A stretch of DNA of 64,000 bases. Source: Octopus vulgaris (Eukaryota). Every line of letters starts with the position of its first letter. The first letter of the stretch is position 1. This document shows, piece by piece, positions 997 to 58,340 of the stretch. The position numbers were made by a program, and so were the translations under genes. A model generated the notes under the pieces. That model made no database searches, was not told the DNA's origin, and worked only from the letters and a program-made list of their open reading frames with translations. The DNA lies in assembly GCA_951406725.2 (NCBI GenBank), contig OX597820.1:96720001-96784000 (forward strand), in the 5' to 3' direction.

Positions 997-2992
997 TCTA
1001 TATATATAAAACTGAAATGCGTTTTTACCGCTTGGATCGCTTTCAATGCCACTACATCCCGTCCGGTTCGCTCCAAAATTTACAGGGACATGTAGAATGA
1101 GGTGACGATGTTCGTGGGCTACCTTAGAAATCCCTATCTTAAAAGGTGTGGTTGCTAGGGCCCATCTTCCTCACTCACGCTATTTCCTCCTTTCCCTCTC
1201 TTACTCCCCTTCATTTATAACATTGAGAAGTCCACTCCAGTTATTTAATGTATTCCCCTCAACTCCCTTTCACTTTCCCTTTATAAGTTCGTCAGGCGGC
1301 CTTCTTTGATGTATCTGTTTGCATTCATAGGGAGAATTATCATCGCCACAATTTATGTATATGTCTTCCTCACTCACTCACTCTTTTTCCTAATGATAAT
1401 TATCATCACCACCACCACCACCACCAACACACAATACTCACTCTATTTCATACAAACGGCCTTCTCTTATGTATCTGTCTGTGTGAAAGAGAGAGATAAC
1501 TGAAATTTTTTACTCGGTTTTTGTAGTGCGTGCGTGTGTATGCATGTATGTGTATATGTATGTATGCATGTATTTGTGTGTGTGTATGTATCTATGTATG
1601 TGTGTGTGTGTGTGTGTGTGTGCGTATGTATGTGTATGTGTGTATGTGTGTGTATGTATGTGTGAGTGTGCATGTATGTATGTACCTTTGCCTGTTTATG
1701 TAACGGTCTGCTATGTAGAAATGAGGTTGACTCAATGGAAATGCATACATACACACACACATACATACACACACATACACACATACATACACTCACATAC
1801 ATACACATACATACACACACACATACATAGATGCAGACCTATGTTAAAAGTGCTGGCAAGTTTGCATGACAACTATTTTTTTTCCTCAAATGAAAGGCGT
1901 AACCTCTAGGACAAAATTCCTCATCTTATAAAATGTGGCCCCAGTACACCCGAATGAAATCGCGTTATATTAACCAAAATGTGAAAAGGGGTATAAATGG
2001 GGCTGGAAGGGGATTAAAATTTAAAGGAGCGGGTGTTTAGGAATTCTCTGTTACATCAAGCTAAAAAATTTGCGCCAGCCTTTTAATCGTCAATGTGTTG
2101 CCGTCCATGATGGAGAAGTTTTGAATGCTTGCCATGGTGAGTCTACTGTTGTGAAAAAGAATCACTTCAAAACTTGGTGTTTAGGGATTTTCTTTTACAT
2201 CAAGTTCAAAATTTTACGCCAGCCGTTAAACTATCAAAACGTTGCTGTCCGTCGTTAAGAAATGCCAGACATGCTGACTCTACTACCCTCAGATTCTATC
2301 CCTTCAAACTTTGGTTTCCAATATTTTATTATTTTCATTCAGCTCGTAAGTTCGTCTGTCCCTTTTAAATGTTAGTCTTTTGCTGTCTGCCTTGAAGCAG
2401 ACCTTTCCGTTGTTACTGCCTGATATTTATGATTGATCTTTCTAAATATTTTATTTCTCAACTTACTCAAGATATTTTGTTGTTTATAAATGGGAGAGAG
2501 ATAGATAAAGATAGAGAGTAAGAGAAAGCGAGGGAAAGTCCGAGAGAAAGGAAGAGTAAGAGAATGGGGAAAGTGAGAGAGAAAGGAGAGAGAAACAAAG
2601 AGGGAAAATCATCATCATCATCATCATCATCGTTTAACGTCCGTTTTCCGTGCTAGCACGGGTTGGACAGTTTGACCGGGGTCTGGGAAGCCAGGAGGCT
2701 GCACCAGGCTCCAGTCTGATCTGGCAGTATTTCTACAGGTGGATGCCCTTCCTAACGCCAACCACTCTGTGAGCGTAGTGGGTGCATTTTTCGTGCCGCA
2801 GGCACAGGTGCCAGGGGGGCTGGCAATGGCCACGATCGGTTGGTGCTTATTACGTGTCACTGGCACAGAAGCCAGTCAAGGCGGCGCTGCAATCCGCCAC
2901 GTTCGGATGGTACTTTTTACGTGCTGAAAGGAAGCAACAGAAAGTAACAACCACACTCTTACCCGCGCGTAGAGCGGGTCACCTTCAGCTAG
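997..2992 (+). mobile_element. Non-autonomous Helitron-like element with nested microsatellites and a SINE
   Basis: 5' TCTATATATATAAAACTGA. 3' hairpin ACCCGC...GCGGGT (2961-2979) then CTAG|T. A similar 5' end (TATATATAAAACTGAG) follows immediately at about 2994. Confidence 0.6.
2610..2920 (-). mobile_element. SINE 3' portion with (GAT)n tail
   Basis: Minus strand reads GTTGGCGTTAGGAAGGGCATCC...CCAACCCGTGCTAGCACGGAAAACGGACGTTAAAC(GAT)n. Resembles Meta-domain/RTE-tailed SINEs; family assignment is from recall. Confidence 0.55.
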
Positions 2993-3242
2993 TATATATA
3001 TAAAACTGAGAATGTGTTTTTGTCTGTATGTGTGCATCACTAAAACTCGAGAACTACCCGACCGATTACACTCAAATTTTACACATGCCTCACTTAGGGT
3101 CCTGCCTAATGCGAGCCCTGAGAGATCTCTTACCTCTTATGCTATTTCAGTATTATGTGTCAAAAGAGAAACCATAATATCTCTATTGTAATGTGAGATA
3201 CTTTCAATTTCATAGTTTCACTATTAATACTGAAACTATTCT

Positions 3243-3979
<737 letters not shown>

Positions 3980-4647
3980 TCCTGATTCACCTTCTGTTTC
4001 TACAGGTGGTTTTGTTACTTGTTTCTCTTGCTTGTTCTTCTGAAATCAATATTTTATAAATTGACAACTTTTCTATAGTGTCGTAATTATAACCAATATA
4101 TTCCCCCCTTATGATATTGGCAGTTATTGGTGTAACTCTGTTAATTGGCTCTTTTGTTTTCGTACGTCGGATGGATGCGACTCTTATCGTGCGACTTATC
4201 ACTTGGATTGGAAAATGGGTTGTGAAGAGGGGTGGTGTCATATCGGTACCTATTCTCTATCCTATCATTTCCCTAGTTGCTGTCTCTGGTTGTCTGTTGT
4301 TGGTGGTGGTCTGTGTTGGCTTGTATGTTTTCATGGTTGCTGTCATTGCTATCCCAATTATTATCGTTATTCTTATAGTTGTGATTGTGGTTGTCGGTCT
4401 TGTTCCTGGTGGTTTTCTCATTGTGTGTGCGGATATCGTTATTCGTGTTGCTGTTGTCTTTGTCACACCAGCTAGTGGTGGTGGTGTTATCGCTGGTTCA
4501 AGTGTTGAGGTTTGTGGTCTTTGTGTCTTTCGTTGTGTTGACCTCTCCGTTCTCATTTTTACTGCTGCTGCTGCTACTCTGGGCACTTAGTTTTGCATGC
4601 TTGTCTTTGTGTTCGTTCTTTGGTGTCGTTGTTGTTGCCGTTGCTGT

Positions 4648-5038
4648 TGGTTTGTTTGTTTGTTGAGCAAAGCGGTCTTCGTCCCAGAGCTCGCAAGCTG
4701 TAGTGGGAGAAGTCCGAAACATGGTCCTTTGCTATTCGTAAGACCCGCAGAAGAGAAAGCAGGTCAACCCCCGACACCGAGGGCATCGACGGGATGGATG
4801 AATGCGCATCCAGGCTCAGCGGTTGCGTAGGAAGTCGGGGACAAGAGACAGGGAGAAAGAGTGAGAGAAAGTTGGAGCGAAAGAGTACAACAGGGGTCGC
4901 CACCCACCCCCCTGCCGGAGCCTCGTGGAGCTTTAGGTGTTTTCGCTCAATAAACACACAACGCCCGGTCTGGGAATCGAAACCACGATCCTCCGACCGC
5001 GAGTCCGCTTCCCTAACCATTGGGCCATTGTGCCTCCA
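4648..5038 (-). mobile_element. tRNA-derived SINE, family S3 (tRNA-Arg-like head)
   Basis: Minus strand GGAGGCACAATGGCCCAATGGTTAGG (A box), GGACTCGCGGTC, GGTTTCGATTCC (B box), (AAAC)n tail. Confidence 0.8.
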
Positions 5039-5520
5039 CTTGCCGTTGCTGTCGTTCTTAGTGGTGCCAATGTTTGGTATGTTGACCCTCGCCTACATTT
5101 TCTTTTCTGTTGCTGCTGCTGCTGTTCTTGACCCTTACTTTAATACTGTTCTTGTATCTTTGTGTGTTCGTTTGTGGTTTTGCCATCGTGACTATGTTTG
5201 TTGGTTTGCACCATAACAGTAACTTCACAAACTGCTGCAACAGCATGAACAACATCATGTAGGAGAAAATATGGGTGATGTGGGGGGTCGGCATGTCGGG
5301 TATTGGTGCCATTGGGAGCGATGGTGGCGGTGGCGACGGCGATACTGTGGGGGGAGGTGACGAACACAAAATACAGAACGACACAACGACGCAGTGAAAG
5401 AAATGAGGACGGAGAGAAGGCCAACGGGACGAGGGATGCAGGGACCACGGGCCCCAACACTGGAACCAGCGATAACACCGCCAGCAGCTGGAGTGACGAG
5501 GACAGCAGTGACATTAATAG

Positions 5521-6119
5521 CTATTTCTTTACTACCCACAAGGGGCTAAGCACAGATGGGACAAGCAAGGACAGACATAGGTATTAAGTCGATTACATCG
5601 ACCCCAGTGCGTAACTGGTACTTAATTTATCGACCCCGAAAGGATGAAAGGCAAAGTTAACCTCGGCGGAATTTGAACTCAGAACGTAACAGCAGACGAA
5701 ATACCTATTTCTTTATTACCCACAAGGGGATAAACATAGAGGGGACAAACAAGGACAGACATAGGTATTAAGTCGATTACATCGACCCCAGTGCGTAACT
5801 GGTACTTAATTTATCGACCCCGAAAGGATGAAAGGCAAAGTTAACCTCGGCGGAATTTGAACTCAGAACGTAACGGCAGACGAAATACCTATTTCTTTAT
5901 TACCCACAAGGGCTAAACATAGAGGGGACAAACAAGGACAGACATAGGTATTAAGTCGATTACATCGACCCCAGTGCGTAACTGGTACTTAATTTATCGA
6001 CCCCGAAAGGATGAAAGGCAAAGTTAACCTCGGCGGAATTTGAACTCAGAACGTAACGGCAGACGAAATACCACTAAGCATTTCGCCCGGCGTGCTATCG
6101 TTTCTGCCAGCTCGCCGCC
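5521..6119 (-). mobile_element. SINE family S1 trimer (one head plus 3 x 183-184 bp)
   Basis: Unit boundaries at 5521, 5705 and 5889. Head GGCGGCGAGCTGGCAGAA at 6119. TSD GTGACATTAATAG at 5508-5520 and 6122-6134. Confidence 0.9.
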
Positions 6120-14414: not shown

Positions 14415-15570
14415 GGCGGCGAGCTGGCTGAATCGTTAGCACGCCGGGCGAAATGCTTAGCAGTATTTCGTCTGCCGCTACTTTCTGAGTTCAAATTCCG
14501 CCGCGGTCGACTTTGCCTTTCATCCTTTCGGGGTCGATTAAATAAGTACCAGTTACGCACTGGGGTCAATATAATCGACTTAATCCGTTTGTCTGTCCTT
14601 GTTTGTCCTCTCTGTGTTTAGCCCCTTGTGGGTAGTAAAGAAATAGGTATTTCATATGTCTTTACGTTCAGAGTTCAAATTCCGCCGTGGTCGACTTTGC
14701 CTTTCATCCTTTCGGGGTCGATTAAATAAGTACCAGTTATGCACTGGGTTCGATATAATCGACTTAATCCGTTTGTCTGTCCTTGTTTGTCCTCTCTGTG
14801 TTTAGCCCTTTGTGGGTAGTAAAGACATAGGTATTTCGTCTGCCGTTACGTTCTGAGTTCAAATTCCGCCGTGGTCGACTTTGCCTTTCATCCTTTCGGG
14901 GTCGATTAAATAAGTACCAGTTACGCACTGGGGTCAATATAATCGACTTAATCCGTTTGTCTGTCCTTGTTTGTCCTCTCTGTGTTTAGCCCCTTGTGGG
15001 TAGTAAAGAAATAGGTATTTCATATGTCTTTACGTTCAGAGTTCAAATTCCGCCGAGGTCGACTTTGCCTTTCATCCTTTCGGGGTCGATTAAATAAGTA
15101 CCAGTTATGCACTGGGTTCGATATAATCGACTTAATCCGTTTGTCTGTCCTTGTTTGTCCTCTCTGTGTTTAGCCCTTTGTGGGTAGTAAAGACATAGGT
15201 ATTTCGTCTGCCGTTACGTTCTGAGTTCAAATTCCGCCGAGGTCGACTTTGCCTTTCATCCTTTCGGGGTCGATTAAATAAGTACCAGTTACGCACTGGG
15301 GTCAATATAATCGACTTAATCCGTTTGTCTGTCCTTGTTTGTCCTCTCTGTGTTTAGCCCCTTGTGGGTAGTAAAGAAATAGGTATTTCATTTGTCTTTA
15401 CGTTCAGAGTTCAAATTCCGCCGAGGTCGACTTTGCCTTTCATCCTTTCGGAGTCGATTAAATAAGTACCAGTTATGCACTGGGGTCGATATAATCGACT
15501 TAATCCGTTTGTCTGTCGTTGTTTGTCCTCTCTGTGTTTAGCCCCTTGTGGGTAGTAAAGAAATAGGTAT
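14415..15570 (+). mobile_element. SINE family S1 hexamer (one head plus 6 x 184 bp)
   Basis: GTAT(TTC) unit starts at 14463, 14647, 14831, 15015, 15199, 15383 and 15567. TSD AACAA(C/T)TAAAGG at 14404 and 15571. Confidence 0.95.
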
Positions 15571-24811: not shown

Positions 24812-26871
24812 AATTTCTTTATTGCCCATAAGGGCATACATAGAAGATACAAAAGGAGGGGCCTGGGACAAAAAAAAACGGAAGGGGTAGTGGTGTTGGG
24901 GTTACAAACGTGAAAGCTGTGGTGAAAACGGTATGAAGTTAAGATATGTGAATAAAAAAATACTGAAAGCTATATTTTTCCGGGTTTATTTTCAACCTGC
25001 CGATTTGGGACCTTTGTTCCCCCCCCCCCCCCACCGCCGCCACTTTTTTTTGGGGGAAAAGAAAATGTTTTCCTCCTTCTCCGTTTGACCGGCTACACCA
25101 GCACTGCCCCATTCATACTCAGCTTTCTTACCACATTTGCCCATCTTTTCTCATACACGCTGAGAGGAAGAGACTTTCTTTCCAGAGGGACCTTCCTTAA
25201 AAGGTGGAAGTTGAACCAACTTACCAGCCCTTGTCCGGAGATTAAGTGGCATTCCCCAATGCCCTTTGCACGTGTCCTCCACACTGTCACTTTCAGTATG
25301 GCCATTACGCAGAAAAAGGCTGCCCTCCTTTCCTTGTTCGGGGAGGGAGGCGGTACAATCTTAACTATGGACTCAATCCAGAGCCGTACTCCTTCAGTTG
25401 TTCGACAAAGGCTATCAACCCCTCCAACACCCTACAGTGTATGAAGGCGTGCGTGACAGTTTCACTGATGCTCCGCACCTCAGGCATGTGGGGGTGTTGA
25501 AACGTGTCTAGACAACCTCTCTCGAACCGGTAAGACCGATCGGTAGCACAATCAATCCAAGGATTTCGGGAAATTATCCAGACACCTCGGCCCGAATGTC
25601 CTTCCGAACAGGTTGGCCAGTTGTTCGTCATTAAAGCCTAGAGTCTCCCCCAGGACGTCATCGGACTTAAACTCTACCAACCCTCTATAGAAATCTGCAG
25701 TGGTAACCTCGCTACCGGTATTGCTCGCTCGGAAGAACAGAATAAGTGCTTGTCTGCCCTCTTTCTGCCATTCTCCCATCTTAGGTCTCCGCTTGATCCA
25801 TGTACTAAGTCCCAGAGGTACTCCAATTGTGGGTAAAGCTGCTTGGATTGCGGTAACCACACCTGCTCGCCATCCAGGTAACGCCGGAGGTGTCTCAGCC
25901 TCAACGCATGCTTGCGCATCACCAGCCATGGCATCCCCAGCCCATCCTTTAACGGTTTCTGGCAGCAGATGGAGCGCCTCACAAGTGGTGGTTTCCTCTT
26001 CTACATAAAGTGCCAAAGGATCCGTTCCAGCTTGGTCAGACACAAAGCGGAGCAAGGCACGACGGTCAGGCGGTAGGTTATCACAGATGCTATAAACACC
26101 TGTGCAACATCGGCCCTCCCTAGCAAGGATAACGGCCTCCCAGACCAATGCTGGGTTATGGCTGTCACCTTACTCGCTACCTCACTCCGGTTCTTCTCCA
26201 CCTGGAGATCTGATGCAAAACAGATTCCGAGAAATTTAAGCGGAACCTCCATCCAGCGTGCGACGACACTGTTGGGAGGCATCGACTTGCCACGTCAGGT
26301 TCTGAGTTGCAAGCCGACTGATTTTTTCTGGCTAATTTTTGCCCCTACCACCGCTTCGTATCCTTTGATTGCGTCTTCTACATGAGGTAGCTTCCCTTCA
26401 TCAGATACGATGATTGTAACATCATCCACATATGCCGTCGCACTTCAACCATAACATAGATCATGTGGATCTCCCTCCATCGTCCCCAATCTTCGCAGCA
26501 GTGGCTCAAGAGCCAATACATACAGGTGCGGGGACAGAGGGCAGCCCTGGCCTACTGAACGGTCAATCACGAACGGGTTCGAGAAGAACCCCTTCACCTA
26601 GACTACAGATTCGATGTTGCAATATAAAGCGTCGGAAAGTCGGGCCCTGTCCGACCGCCCGGAGGACAGCTGCCAAATACCGATGGTCGACTCTATCGAA
26701 TGCCTTAGACTGTTCAATATTCACCAATGCCCCACCTTTGCCAGGAACTTTACCCATCATCTCTATGGTGTAGCATATGAGATGAAGGTTGTTGAATATC
26801 GTCCTACTTGGGATGGTACATGTCTTTGTCTCTCCCATCAGGTCGCCTATGACAATTCTCTTGGCTAACAC
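24812..26871 (-). mobile_element. L1/Tx1-clade LINE, 5'-truncated, ORF2 pseudogene
   Basis: EQSKAFDRVDH, QGCPLSPHLYVLALEPLL, AYVDDVTIIV, C-terminal ETVTHAFIHC. 3' end GCCCTTATGGGCAATAAAGAAAT. Frameshifted. Confidence 0.9.
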
Positions 26872-27095
26872 CTTGGTATCATAAAAACATTCAGACAAAT
26901 ACATAGCAAAAACATCAGGACTTACAAGTATATATAACATACAGAAAATAGCACTACAAGGCACCGTACACATCCTATGTAAAGCACTTTCAATACAATA
27001 AAAATAAGAGCATCACAACGAACAACAGCGCATACCCAAGGCACACAGAGCTGCGCTCGGTATTGCAGTGAAAGTACGTGATAAAAGTAAGACTA

Positions 27096-27100
<5 letters not shown>
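26872..27100 (+). mobile_element. Dong/R4-like family B, 3' fragment
   Basis: Homologous to about 31350-31578 and followed by (TAA)n. Confidence 0.85.
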
Positions 27101-27166
<66 letters not shown>

Positions 27167-27167
<1 letters not shown>

Positions 27168-27686
27168 TTCTGATCTTAACTGATTGGAAGTGTTATCATG
27201 TACATTGTTTTGTCTTGGTATAAAAGATGGGCTACAGCAAATATTCTGCTCCATACCACAGATTTGCTTGTCAGTTGTTTGACCTTAACCAGTTGAGCAT
27301 GTCCCTTAGTGGCTGACGATATGTGCATCTCTGATCACGAGCAGAAGTAGTGGGGGAGCATCATAGCCATATGTTGAGAGGGATTCTTTGGGGTTTGAAT
27401 AGTTCACCTCTGGAAACATGGGTGGTTCTTTCAACATCCTTAAACAACCCTTATTCAGGGACCGTTTGAGCGGGATTGGCTACTCAACCTGAAGAAAATT
27501 CTAACTGGGCCCCACCTGCAAGGTCATGTGCTGTTTATCTTGATATGAGATCACCATGTCGCGCACATATGGTTGTGATGCATGTGCCTGGTGTACCTTT
27601 ATCAGACGGGTAGTCATGATGGGTATATTGGGCTTCGTATATTTTACCCCAGTGTCACTTTGATGGCATGAACTGCTCTCTCACTC
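27167..27686 (+). mobile_element. 520-bp non-coding insertion within (TAA)n, probably a Dong-type 3'UTR or Dong-mobilised element
   Basis: Bounded on both sides by (TAA)n; no ORF. Strand is inferred from the neighbours. Confidence 0.55.
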
Positions 27687-27765
<79 letters not shown>

Positions 27766-27768
27766 TTG

Positions 27769-27829
<61 letters not shown>

Positions 27830-27830
<1 letters not shown>

Positions 27831-30690
27831 CCTCAACCTCACAAACCTCAACCACCTATACTATGCATCCGCGAAAATCTCAACGATCCTATGTGGTGTA
27901 AAGATTAGAAAACGGCAACAGTCCCACAAAAAGCCTTCTTGGCAAGAGCGTCTGCAACAACAAATTAAAATATTTAGATCTGACATTGAATATTTGAAAA
28001 ACCTTAAGGCTCACAAGATTACCAAACCTACAAAAACCCAAAAATTACTGAAAAAATACAATATGAAAACTATACTTGATATTGATGCCACCATAGAAAC
28101 CATCAAACAAAAGGTATCTGCCAAAGCTGCCCGCATAGCGAGGTATGAAAAGCGTGTTAGATTTTTCAAGGACAACAACATGTTCAAAAATAACACCAAG
28201 AATTTTTACAGGAAGATAGGAAAAACAGCGTTTACTGCAGGGTCTGTACCATCAAAAGAAGAAGTGCAGAGATTTTGGAATAAAATCTGGGCAGAAGAAA
28301 AAACACACAACGAAAAGGCCCCCTGGATTGACAGAATATCTACAGAACTGGACCCCTTAGAAGAGCAAAAGTGGGAGGGTGTCAAGGTAGAAGATATAAG
28401 ATCTGCTCTCAGGAGGTCAAGCAAATGGAAGTCTCCAGGAAAGGATAAAATTCCTAACTTCTGGCTGAATGCCTTCCCAGAGAGCCATGAACTGCTAACA
28501 GAACTGTACAATGATGTTTTGCAACACCCTAGTAGGATGCCTCCTTGGCTAGTTAATGGGTTAACATTCCTGCTTCCAAAAAGTGAAGAAACAAATGAAC
28601 CAAAAAACTATAGACCCATAACCTGCTTAACAACTATGTACAAAACACTAACATCTGTCCTGACGGAATATACCTATAGTTTTTTAACAGACAGCAGCAT
28701 ATTCCCTAATGAACAGAAAGGATGTAAACGTGGATCCTACGGCTGTAAAGACCAACTACTCATCAATAAGATGATCTTAGAAGATTGTCACAAACGACAC
28801 AAAAACTTATCAATAGCCTGGATAGACTATAAAAAGGCTTTTGATAGCCTACCACATAGCTGGATTAGGAAATGCCTTGAAATGTATAAGATAGCACCAA
28901 CTCTGCGAAACTTCTTGACTGTAAGTATGAGATCATGGAGAACCACACTAACTCTGAACAGTGACAGTGAATCCCTAAATGCTGGTGATGTAAAAATTTC
29001 GTGTGGCATTTTCCAGGGTGACTCACTGTCACCACTCCTCTTTTGTTTATCCTTAATACCTCTCTCAAAGCTGCTCAATGACGCGCAGTACGGGTATAAA
29101 ATGTTTGATAAAAATATAAATCATCTCGTTTACATGGATGATTTAAAGCTTTTTGCAAAAAATGATCAACAACTCAAGGGCTTACTAGCGATAGTCAAAC
29201 AATTCAGTGACGACATCAGAATGCAATTCGGCCTCGATAAATGTGCAAAGGCTACCTTTATCAAAGGAAAAATGACAGAAACATCTAACGTTAACCTTGA
29301 CCAACAGAATGTCATAAAAGAACTAGACCCAGCGGAGAGCTACAAGTACCTAGGGATAATTGAAGGGAACGGAATAAGGCATTCAGAGATGAAGGAAAGG
29401 ATCAGGAGAGAATGCTATCGAAGAGTGAGAGCAATACTCAAGACAGAGCTGAATGCAAGAAACAGGATCGAAGCAATCAATGCATTAGCTATACCAGTCG
29501 TGACTTACAGTTTCAATATTGTTAACTGGTCAATTACTGAAATATGTCAGCTCGACAGAAAAATAAGGAAACTGTTGACAATGCATAGAATGCACCACCC
29601 TAAGGCAGATACAGAACGACTATATCTGCCAAGAAAAGAGGGAGGCCGTGGTCTTTTGCAACTGGCAATAACAATGAAGATTGCTACAATTGGCCTAGAC
29701 ACCTACCTGAAAAACTCTGAGGACTGGATGCTAAAACTTGTCTCAAAACATGAAAACAAGAAAGCATCATACTCAGTCACAAAACAGGCAAAGGAATATC
29801 TAAGTGAACTCCGAATACAACCAATTTCGGAATTAGAGATAGATATACAAGAAACAAGCACAGAAAAAGCTAGGCGCATGAAAACCCGTGCCAAAACTGC
29901 GGCCTTAGATATTCTGAATAATAAATGGCAAGAAAAACCTCTCTATGGCAAATACCCAAAGAGAGCGAATAATGCAGATATCGACAAAGCCCTGACCCAT
30001 CAATGGCTAATGGCCTCTGGCTTAAAATCTGAAACAGAGGGGTTTATCATAGCAGCTCAAGATCAATGCCTACCAACAAGAAACTACCAGGCCAACATAT
30101 TAAAGATCAGAAGCAGTCCAACGTGTCGTGTATGCAAGCAACAAAATGAAACCATTGACCATGTGGTCTCCAAGTGCAGTCTTCTAGCGCCTACAGAGTA
30201 TCTCAACAGGCACGATAGAGCTGCACAATATATTCACTGGGTAATCTGTAAAAACCTGGATTTGCCCCATGAAAAAAACTGGTGGGAACACAAACCACCC
30301 CCAGTGCTTGAAAATGACCACATCTCACTCCTCTGGAACTTCACCATTCAAACTGACAGGAAGATAGATGCAAATAGGCCAGACATCATATTGAAAAACT
30401 TCAAACAAAGAACATGCCTCCTCATTGATATGACTGTCCCAATCGATATAAACGTATCTGTCAAGACCTACCAAAAACTGAGCAAATATAAAGATCTTGA
30501 AATAGAAATCAGCAAAATGTGGAAGCTGAAGACTAAAACAATACCTGTTGTCATAGGTGCCCTGGGAATGATAGCAAAAGGGGCTGATAGCTACCTAACT
30601 CAGATACCAGGAAACCCAAAAATGGCAGAAGTTCAAAAGATAGTGCTCATGGGAACTGCTCATATCCTACGCAAAATACTCTCTATGTAA
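27830..30690 (+). CDS. R4/Dong-clade non-LTR retrotransposon ORF (reverse transcriptase, CCHC, restriction-like endonuclease), 5'-truncated
   Basis: Uninterrupted frame with KSPGKD, NYRPITCL, WIDYKKAFDS, GIFQGDSLSP, YMDD (29131), YKYLG, CRVC..HVVSKC, RHD, RPDII, LIDMTVP, KLSKY. The poly-Ile N-terminus is (TAA)n read-through. 3'UTR runs to about 30911. Confidence 0.96.
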
Positions 30691-30910
30691 TCTCAAGGTT
30701 TAAAACAAACATAATTTTCGGTTTAAAAAAAAAAAAAAAAAAAAAAAACTTTTTTTTTTTTAGACATTCATTAGTACAATATCCCCACCCCCCAAATATA
30801 TGGCACACTAGGCATAACAACAACATGAACTTCCAACCCTGTTGTCTCTTGAGGTCTCTGGGTGAGACTTGGAGCCAACTTGTACAAATATAAAGCAAAA
30901 GTCAAACATA

Positions 30911-30960
<50 letters not shown>

Positions 30961-31574
30961 GCTGCCCAGTCCTGGCTAAGAAGGAATATATTCACAGACA
31001 TGACAGAGTTGGAACCTACATACATTGGAAGCTATGCCAACATTATGGAATAACAACAGAAAAAAGATAGTATAGGCACACACCAGAAAAGGTCACAGAA
31101 AACGAGAAAGCAACCACACTCTGGGATATGCCGATACACACAGATAGAGAAATTAAGGCCAACAGACCAGATATAGTTGTCAGAGATCATGAAGAAAAAA
31201 ATGCTTTCTAATTGATGTATCAATACCGGCAGATGACAACGTGTCTCTAAAAGAAATGAAGAAACTCTCAAAATACAAAGACCTGGAAATAGAGGTAACC
31301 AGAATGTGGAATCTAAAAACAGAAACAATTCCAATCATAGTAGGTGCATTAGGTATGATAAAAAAATATTCAGACAAATACATAACAAAAACACCAGGAC
31401 TTACAAACACATATAACATACAGAAAAGTGCACTACTAGGCACTGCACACATCCTACGCAGAACACTTTCCATACAATAACCATCAGAGCATCACAACAA
31501 ATCACAGCACATACCTAAGGCACACAGAGCTGCGCTCGGTAGTGAAGTGAAAGCACGCTATAAAAATAAAACTA

Positions 31575-31578
<4 letters not shown>
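30961..31578 (+). mobile_element. Dong/R4-like family B, 3' fragment (endonuclease region)
   Basis: CPVLAKKEYIHRHDRVG...ANRPDIVV...LIDVSIP...KLSKYKDLEIEV...GTAHILRR, with a stop and a frameshift. Flanked by (TAA)n. Confidence 0.92.
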
Positions 31579-31606
<28 letters not shown>

Positions 31607-33819: not shown

Positions 33820-34500
33820 TACAGGATGCGTAAGGTGTTTGAGGACATATCTTTTTGGGGTCATTGCTGCATTTTTTGCTAACTCTGTATAATCTTTGTT
33901 CCAGAAAATAATAGCACACTCTCAGCTTACCCAAGAAGTGAAGAGGCATGTTGTTATTGTGGTTATAAAGGTTGAGCATAGTGATTTAGAAATATCTCGA
34001 GTTTTAAAAGTAGCCAGATCTTTCGTCTACAAAGTTTGTAAGGAGCTAGAGAGTGAAGCTGGAAACGTATCACCAGTATCAAAGCATAAAAAGCATTCTA
34101 AACCCTCTAAAATCATCAGAACACCTGAATTTATCCGGCGAGTTCAACAAAGCATTGATTACAATCCCAGAAAGTCTATGAGGCCAATTGCAAAAGATCT
34201 CCATGTGTCAGAAGGAACAGTCAGAAATGTTGTCCTCGATGACATCAGATATAATAAGTCTTATATGATGAGGAAAGGTCAATTTGTCAGAAAAAACAAA
34301 AGAAAATCATTACATCCGATCTAAAAAGCCCTTAAACAAACTGAAAAATCTAGCAGAAGATTTGATTTGGTTTCTCTCAAACGAGAAAAACTTCGACCAA
34401 GATCAAAAAGTTAACAGAAGAAATGACAGATGGTTATATGCAGATTATTCTGAAGTTTCAAGTGTTATGCATATAAAATTTCCTGCACAATGGAAGACCA
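33820..34500 (+). mobile_element. Tc1/mariner maT (DD37D)-like transposase remnant
   Basis: RTPEFI...NPRKSMR.IAKDLHVSEGTVRNVV..DIRY and WFLSNEKNFDQDQKVNRRNDRW. Confidence 0.8.
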
Positions 34501-34745
34501 TGTGTTTCAGTAAGACTCAGCACCCCCCCCCCCCCCCACCACCACCACACACACACGCACACACATGCACACACATGATCACACGCACATTATGTGGTAA
34601 TTCTTCAACAAGTAGAAACGTACTCGATCAGCTAAGAGAGTAAAGATAATCTTTAAACAAAAGCCCACAAATCTTGATCCCCATATATGTCGAGTTGACA
34701 ACTTTGCTTCTTCGAACGAAAGAATGCCATAAAATAACTTCTTTT

Positions 34746-57019: not shown

Positions 57020-58340
57020 TCGGCCTTTTAGCAGATATCTATCGCAACTGGCAACAGGACAGGAGAATTCCTAATTCTGCGAGGCAAGGAGTGGTGGTAC
57101 TGCTGAAAAAGGACCCACACAAAGAGGATCAAATAGAAAATTTTAGGCCCATAACGCTGTTGAACACAATTTTCAAAGTTTTTGTGAAAATGTTAGCAAA
57201 GAGGTTTACGCTTTTCGATGAGGAACTGATTAGTGATGCACAAACATGCGCAATTCCAAGTAGATCCATTCGTGACAACCCTCAACATCATAGACAGAGT
57301 GGGAAAGGAACCTGGCATGAGTGGGCCCTGAACAATTTGGATCAGTCAAAAGCTTTGAATAGAGTCGACCACCAATACTTGGCGGCTATTCTCACGGCGG
57401 CCGGTTTCGGTCCCGTTTTCTGTGGTTGGATCGCTGCAATGTACGGCAACATCTGCTCGGTAGAATGGTTACCCATCGGACCCTTTCAGCATCATGCTCT
57501 CAGTCCATCAAGGGGTTCCCCTCTCGTCTTTTCTGTATGTACTGGCTCTAAACCACTACTGAGGAACTAGGACGTAGAACCGTGTCGACGTACGCAGACG
57601 ATGTCACCGTCGTCATAGTGTCGAACGGCAGGCACATTGACCTGGTTGGCACTGCACTAAAAGAATACGAGGCGGCAACGTCGTTGGATGCTGGACGGCG
57701 AGACCGGTTAAATTGCTCGAGATCTGGTTTGATCCGGATCTCCTGATGAAGAACTGAGACGAGGTGACGAGCATGTCGCCTAATATCATCCAGAAATGAG
57801 AGAAAGCTATCTCTGAAAGGTCGGGCAGAGGTGGAGAAGCATACACTGCCTGACGATTGTGCCTTGCTCGACTTTACGTCTGATCAAACTGGAGCTCGTT
57901 CGCTATCTGTGGAAGGGACGCATCCACTGGTCATGAGATCCAATTGTTGTCAACATCCACTGAATGAAGGGTTGAGAATGTCGTGGCTGCTGATGCACAG
58001 ACATGCACTAAGGCTGCGACATTTTCAGTGCTTCGTTGACAGTGAACTCGTCTCTGAGTTGCAGTATTCGATCAAACGTAGATCGAGGGAAGGCGCCAGT
58101 ACCTGGAGTTTCGTCAGACACTTACAGTTTTCTGTCAGTCGTGCAATACAGTAGGTGGAAGTTCCACTTTGGTATTCCACAGAGGGTTAATGGCGGGTAA
58201 GTACGACGACGTTTTCGGTGAGACACTGGGCGTCGACGAGAATGAACTGGCTGGGCTGTTTTGGCGGACTTTTGGGCCTTGCAGAAATCCTTGGCCTCGA
58301 AGTGCTACCGGGAGGCATTGCTGGCTTGGGATAAACACAA
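57020..58340 (+). mobile_element. L1/Tx1-clade ORF2 remnant
   Basis: VVLLKKDP...NFRPITLLN..FK, LDQSKALNRVDH, YADDVT, MHRHALRLRH. Many deletions. Confidence 0.88.

What the first reader, a model, noticed from the sequence alone, without database searches (positions are those of the whole stretch)
26872..31605. Four co-oriented insertions stacked in a (TAA)n tract, including an intact RT-REL ORF
Seen: fragment B, (TAA)n, non-coding insert C, (TAA)n, family A with about 950 open codons, (TAA)n, fragment B, (TAA)n. Known: Dong elements (R4 clade) are site-specific for TAA repeats through a restriction-like endonuclease. Inference: at least two, probably three, lineages share one microsatellite target, and each insertion leaves targets on both sides. 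The unbroken ORF implies recent activity, making it a candidate active site-specific retrotransposase.
Basis: partly seen in the sequence, partly recalled or inferred. Interest (0 to 1): 0.7.

Follow-up and report, generated by a model that had tools for sequence, protein, structure and literature searches.

The report
Dong retrotransposons with a TAA-targeting passenger
Two families of Dong-like jumping genes and a short non-coding element with thousands of copies have piled up in one TAA repeat; such piles are common in this genome and the coding copy here lacks its first quarter, but the short element likely borrows the Dong enzyme without sharing any detectable sequence with it.

Summary
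The stack is real, with two corrections. The 950-codon frame is not intact: it is a 5'-truncated copy (3.07 of 4.95 kb) that lacks the 5' UTR and 323 of 1272 codons. The leftmost fragment has no TAA on its 5' side.

Families A and B are R4/Dong-type RT-REL elements, 43% identical in protein, that insert into pre-existing (TAA)n in one orientation. A is very young: 1,886 exact 3' ends, median 0.16% divergence, 12 of 48 5'-complete copies with open ORFs. TAA-targeting Dong elements, and recent Dong-R4 activity in octopus, are published. Stacks are ordinary here (5 of 40 sampled 10-kb stretches).

The unexpected part is insert C, a 556-558-nt non-coding retroposon with 5,478 exact 5' ends. It has the same target, orientation and junction signature as A and B. 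It has no tRNA, Pol III or Rfam head and no similarity to A or B. It is likely a Dong passenger (inferred; partner unidentified). Clade membership by a tree with named references, polymorphism and expression were not established. Earlier scan notes cover Dong 3' hairpins in this genome, not C.

The parts
26400..26876 (-). Left flank: degraded RT remnant of another non-LTR family ('L1/Tx1-like' is a label recalled from its motifs; Pfam gave no hit). Its left extent was not mapped. It is cut at 26876.
   Evidence: relatives 75-82% identical continue past 26876 with other sequence; outgroup branch
26875..27098 (+). B1: old 3' fragment of Dong-like family B (last ORF codons and 103-nt 3' UTR). No TAA on its 5' side; 2-nt overlap with the left remnant.
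   Evidence: nearest 86-91%; 6.9% from the majority of 19 relatives
27099..27166 (+). (AAT)n tract, 22.7 units
27167..27686 (+). C: positions 37-558 of a 556-558-nt non-coding, TAA-targeted retroposon family
   Evidence: 0.77% from the majority of its 29 best hits
27687..27829 (+). (AAT)n tract, 47.7 units, one interruption
27830..27838 (+). 9-nt junction piece that repeats 27845-27853 of the element (5'-junction duplication)
   Evidence: absent from other copies, which match from query position 10
27839..30911 (+). A: 5'-truncated copy (nt 1878-4951) of young Dong-like family A. Open frame, codons 324-1272, stop at 30688-30690; 3' UTR to 30911.
   Evidence: 2 differences in 2,852 nt from the family majority, both shared with other copies
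29131..29142 (+). RT active-site motif YMDD
   Evidence: (DD in 85 of 85 aligned proteins)
30124..30177 (+). CCHC knuckle C-x2-C-x8-H-x4-C
30208..30489 (+). Restriction-like endonuclease motifs RHD, PD, D, KxxKY, all present
   Evidence: (aligns with R2Tg endonuclease)
30912..30960 (+). (AAT)n tract, 16.3 units
30961..31577 (+). B2: 617-nt 3' fragment of family B, with a stop and a frameshift
   Evidence: nearest 98.5%; 1.46% from the majority of 29 best hits
31578..31606 (+). (AAT)n tract, 9.7 units; right end of the stack

Best explanation
This is a pile of four same-strand retroposon insertions in a TAA microsatellite, from two Dong-like families (A, B) and one non-coding family (C), likely added one at a time by Dong-type target-primed reverse transcription, with C likely copied by a Dong enzyme. 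Shown: the targets pre-exist; all three families sit in TAA on one strand and join the tract in the same register; the ages differ (B1 oldest, then B2 and C, A youngest and in the middle); the A copy here is 5'-truncated while complete ORFs exist elsewhere. Inferred: the endonuclease nicks the (TTA)n strand, the freed end primes reverse transcription at the RNA 3' end, and the cDNA joins the upstream TAA, often early (truncation) or after re-copying the RNA 5' end (tandem duplications). Each insertion splits one tract into two, so later insertions stack. The missing TAA left of B1 is likely a later microhomology deletion.
For: 5' flanks: TAA within about 105 nt of the start in 20 of 20 extended A copies. 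TAA within 90 nt in 29 of 30 5'-complete A hits, the other showing GAA only. TAA directly at the junction in 18 of 20 B copies and in 28 of 30 position-ordered C copies; the other two carry an inversion or a 5' duplication. Genome-wide, 90 of 5,478 C 5' ends have G/C at both -5 and -4, against about 750 for random flanks; most of the 30 examined carry tandem or rearranged pieces of C's own 5' part or an adjacent TAA tract. Empty and filled sites: in a multicopy host repeat with an internal (AAT)n, 8 empty and 8 longer intervals were listed. A fills it cleanly in 3 and C in 2, with both host flanks kept; the other 3 hold A or B pieces in less clear arrangements. Register: 76 of 86 A, 43 of 52 B and 89 of 115 C ends are followed by AATAA(T) in the same phase. 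The 3' flank follows the target: one C sits in a GAA tract with GAA after it (L247), and one runs directly into the host's degenerate tract (L208). Protein: single ORF, closest solved structures R2 (phmmer E 2e-29, Foldseek E 9e-35, 17% identity), no N-terminal zinc finger in 0 of 76, 38% identical over 1,199 aa to a louse RT. Youth. Literature: PMC7998251, PMC3812793, PMC13282606.
Against: No named Dong or R4 reference could be placed in a tree; the tree is a quick, unfinished search without them. The Myb-like call is weak: Z 5.2 to the R2Bm Myb region, best Z 6.2, no Foldseek or Pfam hit. C shares no sequence with A or B and no 3' end with the other TAA-tailed families seen (by eye), so its driver is inferred from target and junctions only. 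One of 16 visible A junctions (L159) had no TAA. B1 lacks the 5' tract. Purifying selection among source copies is not significant (12:12 against 80:41, p = 0.17). A Dong consensus in O. bimaculoides showed no insertion polymorphism (PMC9115989).
Confidence: 0.85

Rival explanations
1. C is mobilised by an APE-type LINE (RTE or Tx1) that prefers AT-rich microsatellites, and only shares the TAA niche with Dong.
For: RTE-related SINEs end in microsatellite-like repeats tied to their target (PMC6007223, abstract). Tx1 families target microsatellites and carry SINEs (PMC4494074, passages). C has no 3' similarity to A or B. At least two C copies sit at GAA tracts.
Against: C matches A and B in strand, register and 5'-duplication signature. 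The recurring coding 3' ends found before TAA tracts were Dong-like where they were checked. No APE-type TAA-tailed LINE was identified among 355 loci, though none was searched for directly.
Confidence: 0.15
2. C is a SIDE-like derivative (5' end plus 3' end) of a Dong family that is extinct or that I did not recover.
For: Fixed 5' end (18 of 30 copies start at positions 1-3). R2 SIDEs are a precedent (PMC3414825, abstract). About eight TAA-tailed families appear, and full-length ends were recovered only for A and B.
Against: No copy extends C on either side into a longer element: 30 of 90 non-TAA 5' flanks and 8 of 8 non-TAA 3' flanks were examined. No protein similarity to 121 R4-like proteins. 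No HDV-like fold by my descriptor (no positive control).
Confidence: 0.3
3. TAA is only a tail; the 5' tracts come from template jumps or from one multi-RNA insertion event.
For: R2 can template-jump (PMC3414825, abstract). 5' tandem duplications show jumping in these families (5 of 30 A hits).
Against: The four parts differ in age from 0.07% to about 7%. Solo copies have TAA on the 5' side, and empty sites in a host repeat already hold the tract.
Confidence: 0.03
4. The window's ORF is itself an active, expressed retrotransposase.
For: 949 open codons with all catalytic motifs.
Against: It lacks the 910-nt 5' UTR, the start codon and the conserved N-terminal helical domain. Its openness is explained by age.
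Confidence: 0.03

Closest known systems
Dong (B. mori), DongAg, DongBg and ostracod Dong1/2: R4 clade, TAA-specific (PMC3812793, PMC7998251; passages)
   Same: Single ORF with RT, CCHC and REL; conserved N-terminal helical, Myb/SANT-like domain without zinc fingers; (TAA)n target on both flanks.
   Different: Thousands of copies and about eight coexisting TAA-tailed families. No HDV-like 5' ribozyme found in A or B, whereas B. mori Dong self-cleaves (PMC3774820, passages).
Dong-R4 LINEs annotated in octopus (PMC13282606, parts 1-2 of 3; PMC9115989, PMC8967140, passages)
   Same: Recently active, abundant Dong-R4 families (5 families, 1,129 near-full insertions within 2% in that annotation).
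   Different: The text read gives no target site, stacking or passenger element. Their sequence library was not available, so A, B and C could not be matched to it.
EhSINE1 of Entamoeba (PMC2996970, passages; that its partner EhLINE1 is R4-like is recalled)
   Same: 500-600-nt non-coding retroposon with no identified small-RNA precursor.
   Different: EhSINE1 shares about 70 nt of 3' end with its LINE and is not site-specific; C shares none with A or B and is TAA-specific.
R2 SIDEs (PMC3414825, abstract)
   Same: Short non-autonomous elements at the target of an RLE-type LINE, with the LINE's 5'-junction variation.
   Different: SIDEs are a ribozyme plus the LINE 3' end and are rare; C has neither detectable part and has tens of thousands of copies.
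SINEU-3 with Tx1-Mar (PMC4494074, passages)
   Same: Target-specific SINE whose partner is inferred from a shared target; sequential insertions; possible transcription from the flank.
   Different: snRNA-derived head, APE-type partner, transposon target.

Membership tests
R4/Dong clade (families A, B) | Single ORF with RT and C-terminal CCHC plus PD-(D/E)xK endonuclease | tested here: met
   (A); B by alignment to A and the C-terminal fragment
R4/Dong clade (families A, B) | No N-terminal zinc fingers | tested here: met
   0 of 76 proteins including A and B, by pattern
R4/Dong clade (families A, B) | Diverged N-terminal Myb/SANT-like domain | tested here: inconclusive
   Conserved helical domain, pLDDT 94. 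Several Myb/SANT domains among the top rows (NgTRF Z 5.8, rmsd 5.1, 75 aligned; R2Bm 143-215 Z 5.2, rmsd 4.0, 72 aligned) but all Z under 8. Deleted in the window copy.
R4/Dong clade (families A, B) | Insertion into (TAA)n, with target on both flanks | tested here: met
   B1 in the window is an exception
R4/Dong clade (families A, B) | RT groups with named Dong/R4 in a tree | not testable with these tools
   No named reference was retrieved. Nearest named protein is a Pediculus RT, XP_002431867.1, 38% over 1,199 aa. PMC7998251 lists a Pediculus R4/Dong, but its accession is in a figure that I could not see.
R4/Dong clade (families A, B) | HDV-like ribozyme at the 5' end | tested here: inconclusive
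   No Rfam hit in the loci given (these held C and 5'-truncated A copies, not the A or B 5' end). No match to my descriptor in the A, B or C 5' regions, without a positive control.
R2 clade | N-terminal zinc fingers and 28S rDNA target | tested here: not met
   17% identity to R2 structures
Classical SINE (family C) | tRNA, 7SL, 5S or snRNA-derived head with Pol III boxes | tested here: not met
   No Rfam family, no tRNA, no A or B box and two internal T4 runs
Classical SINE (family C) | 3' tail shared with a partner LINE | tested here: inconclusive
   None with A or B; none by eye with the other 3' ends seen; the LINE set of the genome was not complete
Non-autonomous retroposon (family C) | Short, non-coding, fixed ends, 5' truncations, dispersed high copy number | tested here: met
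   Longest stop-free run 59 codons
SIDE (family C) | Made of the 5' and 3' ends of its autonomous partner | tested here: inconclusive
   Not met for A and B; untested for families whose 5' ends were not recovered

The most novel reading that the evidence does not exclude
C is a headless and tailless passenger of a microsatellite-specific restriction-endonuclease LINE. It has reached tens of thousands of copies in several related species with no Pol III head, no known ribozyme and no 3' sequence shared with its driver. Dong enzymes would then accept unrelated RNAs, by a cryptic structure or by pairing a few 3' AAU bases with the nicked (TTA)n primer. The TAA tracts would be a self-renewing niche shared by about eight Dong families and one passenger.
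Probability: 0.4. Interest if true: 0.62.

Novelty: new variant of a known kind. Interest (0 to 1): 0.4.

Why it matters
The LINE part adds young members to a known kind. It is useful mainly because complete, near-identical ORFs (12 of 48 examined) give an R4/Dong enzyme with a simple target for biochemistry; the only solved relatives found were R2 proteins. C matters more. If a Dong protein copies it without a shared 3' end, template choice in this group is looser than in R2, and A, B and C form a natural test set. About half of the longer TAA tracts sampled (20 of 38, by eye) touch these elements. That bears on microsatellite markers, and short-read insertion callers may miss insertions inside such repeats (inference).

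Tried and rejected
Rfam at E up to 1 on five loci: only simple-repeat noise, nothing on C. Folding of C in 100-nt windows: no z below -1.7, so no structured head or tail is shown. HDV-like and hammerhead patterns in the A, B, C 5' regions: none. Longer parent of C: none among the non-TAA flanks examined. Named Dong/R4 reference proteins: not retrieved in two searches. Foldseek and Pfam on the N-terminal domain: no significant hit. Tree: careful search unfinished; the quick tree only shows A and B on separate branches with other animals' proteins between them. Reads: the one raw-read run (X24) gave 5 and 11 reads of 12.9 million on A and C and is unexplained and uninformative. X12 is only guessed to be RNA, so expression is not shown. 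Insertion polymorphism at this locus was not tested. Papers not held: the original Dong paper and the 2015 octopus genome paper. The supplement and Zenodo library of PMC13282606 were not seen and may already list C as an unclassified SINE. No paper on a Dong-driven SINE was found in the searches; Repbase and Dfam could not be searched.
Full report
Setting. The window is G000:C7:96,720,001-96,784,000 of a 2.8-Gb genome. That it is octopus-like is my inference from size and repeat content, in line with earlier scan notes.

Observation. Four segments, each followed by (AAT)n, lie on the + strand. B1 (26875-27098) and B2 (30961-31577) are 85% identical. The A frame hits RVT_1 at E 1.7e-27 and keeps YMDD, a CCHC knuckle, and RHD, PD, D and KxxKY. 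Other copies extend 1,877 nt upstream, to a 4,951-nt element with a 910-nt 5' UTR and a 1,272-aa ORF, so the window copy lacks codons 1-323. B1 has no 5' tract: it overlaps by two bases a minus-strand RT remnant whose relatives continue with other sequence, and that remnant does not resume on the right. A later deletion is the simplest reading (inference).

Family A. The 24 best other hits matched 562 nt of the window copy at the top score, reported as 100%. An exact 32-mer of the 3' end occurs 1,886 times and a 25-mer of the 5' end 64 times. Of these 64 I examined 48 loci; 12 have an ORF of at least 1,265 codons. This is a lower bound: older variants were scored as zero by the script, and most breaks seen are one-base changes in homopolymer runs, which may be assembly errors. 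The 30 sequences that could be aligned differ from the majority by a median of 0.16%; the window copy differs by 2 of 2,852 sites, both shared. At the rate quoted in PMC13282606 (0.0036 per Myr) the median is about 0.4 Myr. The model (pLDDT 89) matches R2 structures best, then L1 ORF2p. No N-terminal zinc finger was found in 76 proteins. A conserved helical domain at about residues 115-203 resembles Myb/SANT domains weakly, as described for R4/Dong in PMC7998251 (passages).

Family B. Full length is about 3.95 kb, 42.7% identical to A over 951 aa, with 7,865 exact 29-mers near the 3' end. Eighteen of 20 copies have TAA directly at the 5' junction, one has a 5' duplication first, and one was unresolved by the script. 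Further 3' ends before TAA tracts point to about eight families (counted by eye, not all shown to be coding).

Target. TAA is not only a tail. Copies truncated at many positions begin directly after TAA. A multicopy host repeat with an internal (AAT)n gave 8 empty and 8 longer intervals (two of the empty rows are the same site); A fills it cleanly in 3 and C in 2 with both host flanks kept. All three families join the tract in the same phase. The 3' flank can be GAA or a degenerate tract when the target is (L247, L208), which suggests that the flank is mostly target DNA (inference). Of 30 position-ordered A 3' ends, 14 ran beyond the flank held. Of the 16 visible junctions, 10 had TAA directly, 5 close by, and 1 none.

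How special is the stack? In 40 fixed 10-kb stretches (400 kb) there were 38 tracts of five or more units. By eye, 20 touch a Dong-like or C element (3 of these come from one local tandem amplification), and 5 stretches hold two or more elements in a row. C and B lie close and on the same strand far above chance, as a shared oriented target predicts. Divergence from family majorities is 6.9% (B1), 1.46% (B2), 0.77% (C) and 0.07% (A) (the comparison sets are best hits, so values are biased low). This fits serial insertion with the youngest in the middle.

Family C. It is 556-558 nt long and has no stop-free run over 59 codons and no similarity to 121 R4-like proteins. Exact 5' and 3' words occur 5,478 and 4,779 times. 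The sample holds 4 near-full copies, or 7 with fragments, which scales to roughly 28,000-49,000 copies (95% limits 7,600-101,000). Divergence among 102 copies runs from 0.2 to 14%. Of 30 position-ordered copies, 18 start at positions 1-3 and 28 have TAA directly upstream. Only 90 of 5,478 5' ends and 8 3' ends have the G/C pair that marks a non-TAA flank. The 30 and 8 examined show tandem re-copies or rearranged pieces of C's own start, nearby tracts or unrelated DNA, and no shared extension. The same tandem 5' re-copying occurs in A and B. C has no Rfam family, tRNA or Pol III boxes and no match to A or B. Runs of five coded organisms hold at least 82% of its words. Contigs of organisms B and E cover the A ORF, those of E with many near-fixed differences, and contigs of organisms C and E cover C; the best holder X2 may be the source and is left out. 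I read C as a Dong passenger (about 0.75). Which family drives it, and how its 5' end is made, are open.

Mechanism. Shown: target, orientation, register, truncations, 5' duplications, age order, catalytic motifs. From established R2 biochemistry (recalled; structures): nick, target-primed reverse transcription, second-strand joining. Inferred: that A and B do this at (TAA)n, that the Myb-like domain reads the repeat, and that C is copied in trans.

Known and new. TAA-targeting Dong elements in insects, molluscs and cnidarians are published (PMC3812793, PMC7998251; passages). Dong-R4 is the most numerous recently active LINE group in an octopus annotation (PMC13282606, parts 1-2 of 3), and a full-length Dong consensus without polymorphism was reported in another octopus (PMC9115989, passages). 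Ribozyme-bearing Dong 5' ends are in PMC3774820 (passages). PMC8967140, PMC5678591, PMC12988792, PMC4494074 and PMC2996970 were seen as passages; PMC6007223 and PMC3414825 as abstracts. I found no description of a Dong-driven, TAA-specific non-coding element, but repeat databases and supplements were not seen.

Verdict. A and B are new members of a known kind, and the stack is ordinary. C is a probable new variant of non-autonomous retroposon. Interest 0.4.

Noticed in passing
L156, L157, L272:6971, L281:4920 and many other loci: An abundant SINE-like repeat abuts TAA tracts in the opposite orientation, by its head (36 cases) or its tail (45 cases), so it appears to supply or share Dong targets.
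   Followed up: partly
L208, L216, L326, L333, L344: The internal (AAT)n of a repeat with a tRNA-like head is a repeated landing site for A and C; earlier scan notes call this repeat a Penelope terminal repeat.
   Followed up: partly
L179, L188, L189, L196, L247, L367: (GAA)n runs sit between the TAA tract and the 5' end of several full-length A copies, and two C copies lie at GAA tracts.
   Followed up: partly
L033, L041, L351, L332: A copies that end early at internal A-rich points and are followed by TAA (internal priming, or later insertion or deletion); in L332 A stops at nt 707 and TAA then C follow.
   Followed up: partly
L031, L344: Internally deleted A copies (4.1 and 3.3 kb) with both ends; each seen once.
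   Followed up: no
L211, L043: 5'-inverted copies of C and of A.
   Followed up: no
L058:1599-1605: A recurring joint from about position 135-141 of C back to its start, in contigs of three runs.
   Followed up: no
G000:C1:30148148-30149001, C14:67615175-67615443; L268: Tandem arrays made of the 5' or 3' tip of C.
   Followed up: no
window 30725-30761: The 3' UTR of young A holds an A24 run followed closely by a T run that could pair; older variants lack it.
   Followed up: no
window 5516-6072 and 14479-15570: Tandem arrays of a 184-nt unit resembling the abundant SINE.
   Followed up: no
window 57285-58021: A second remnant about 70% like the left-flank RT element, on the other strand.
   Followed up: no
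window 33893-34643: Broken frames that look like a Tc1/mariner-type transposase (label recalled, not tested).
   Followed up: no
P0114, P0120, P0125: Some relatives of A carry an extra PF02338 domain.
   Followed up: no
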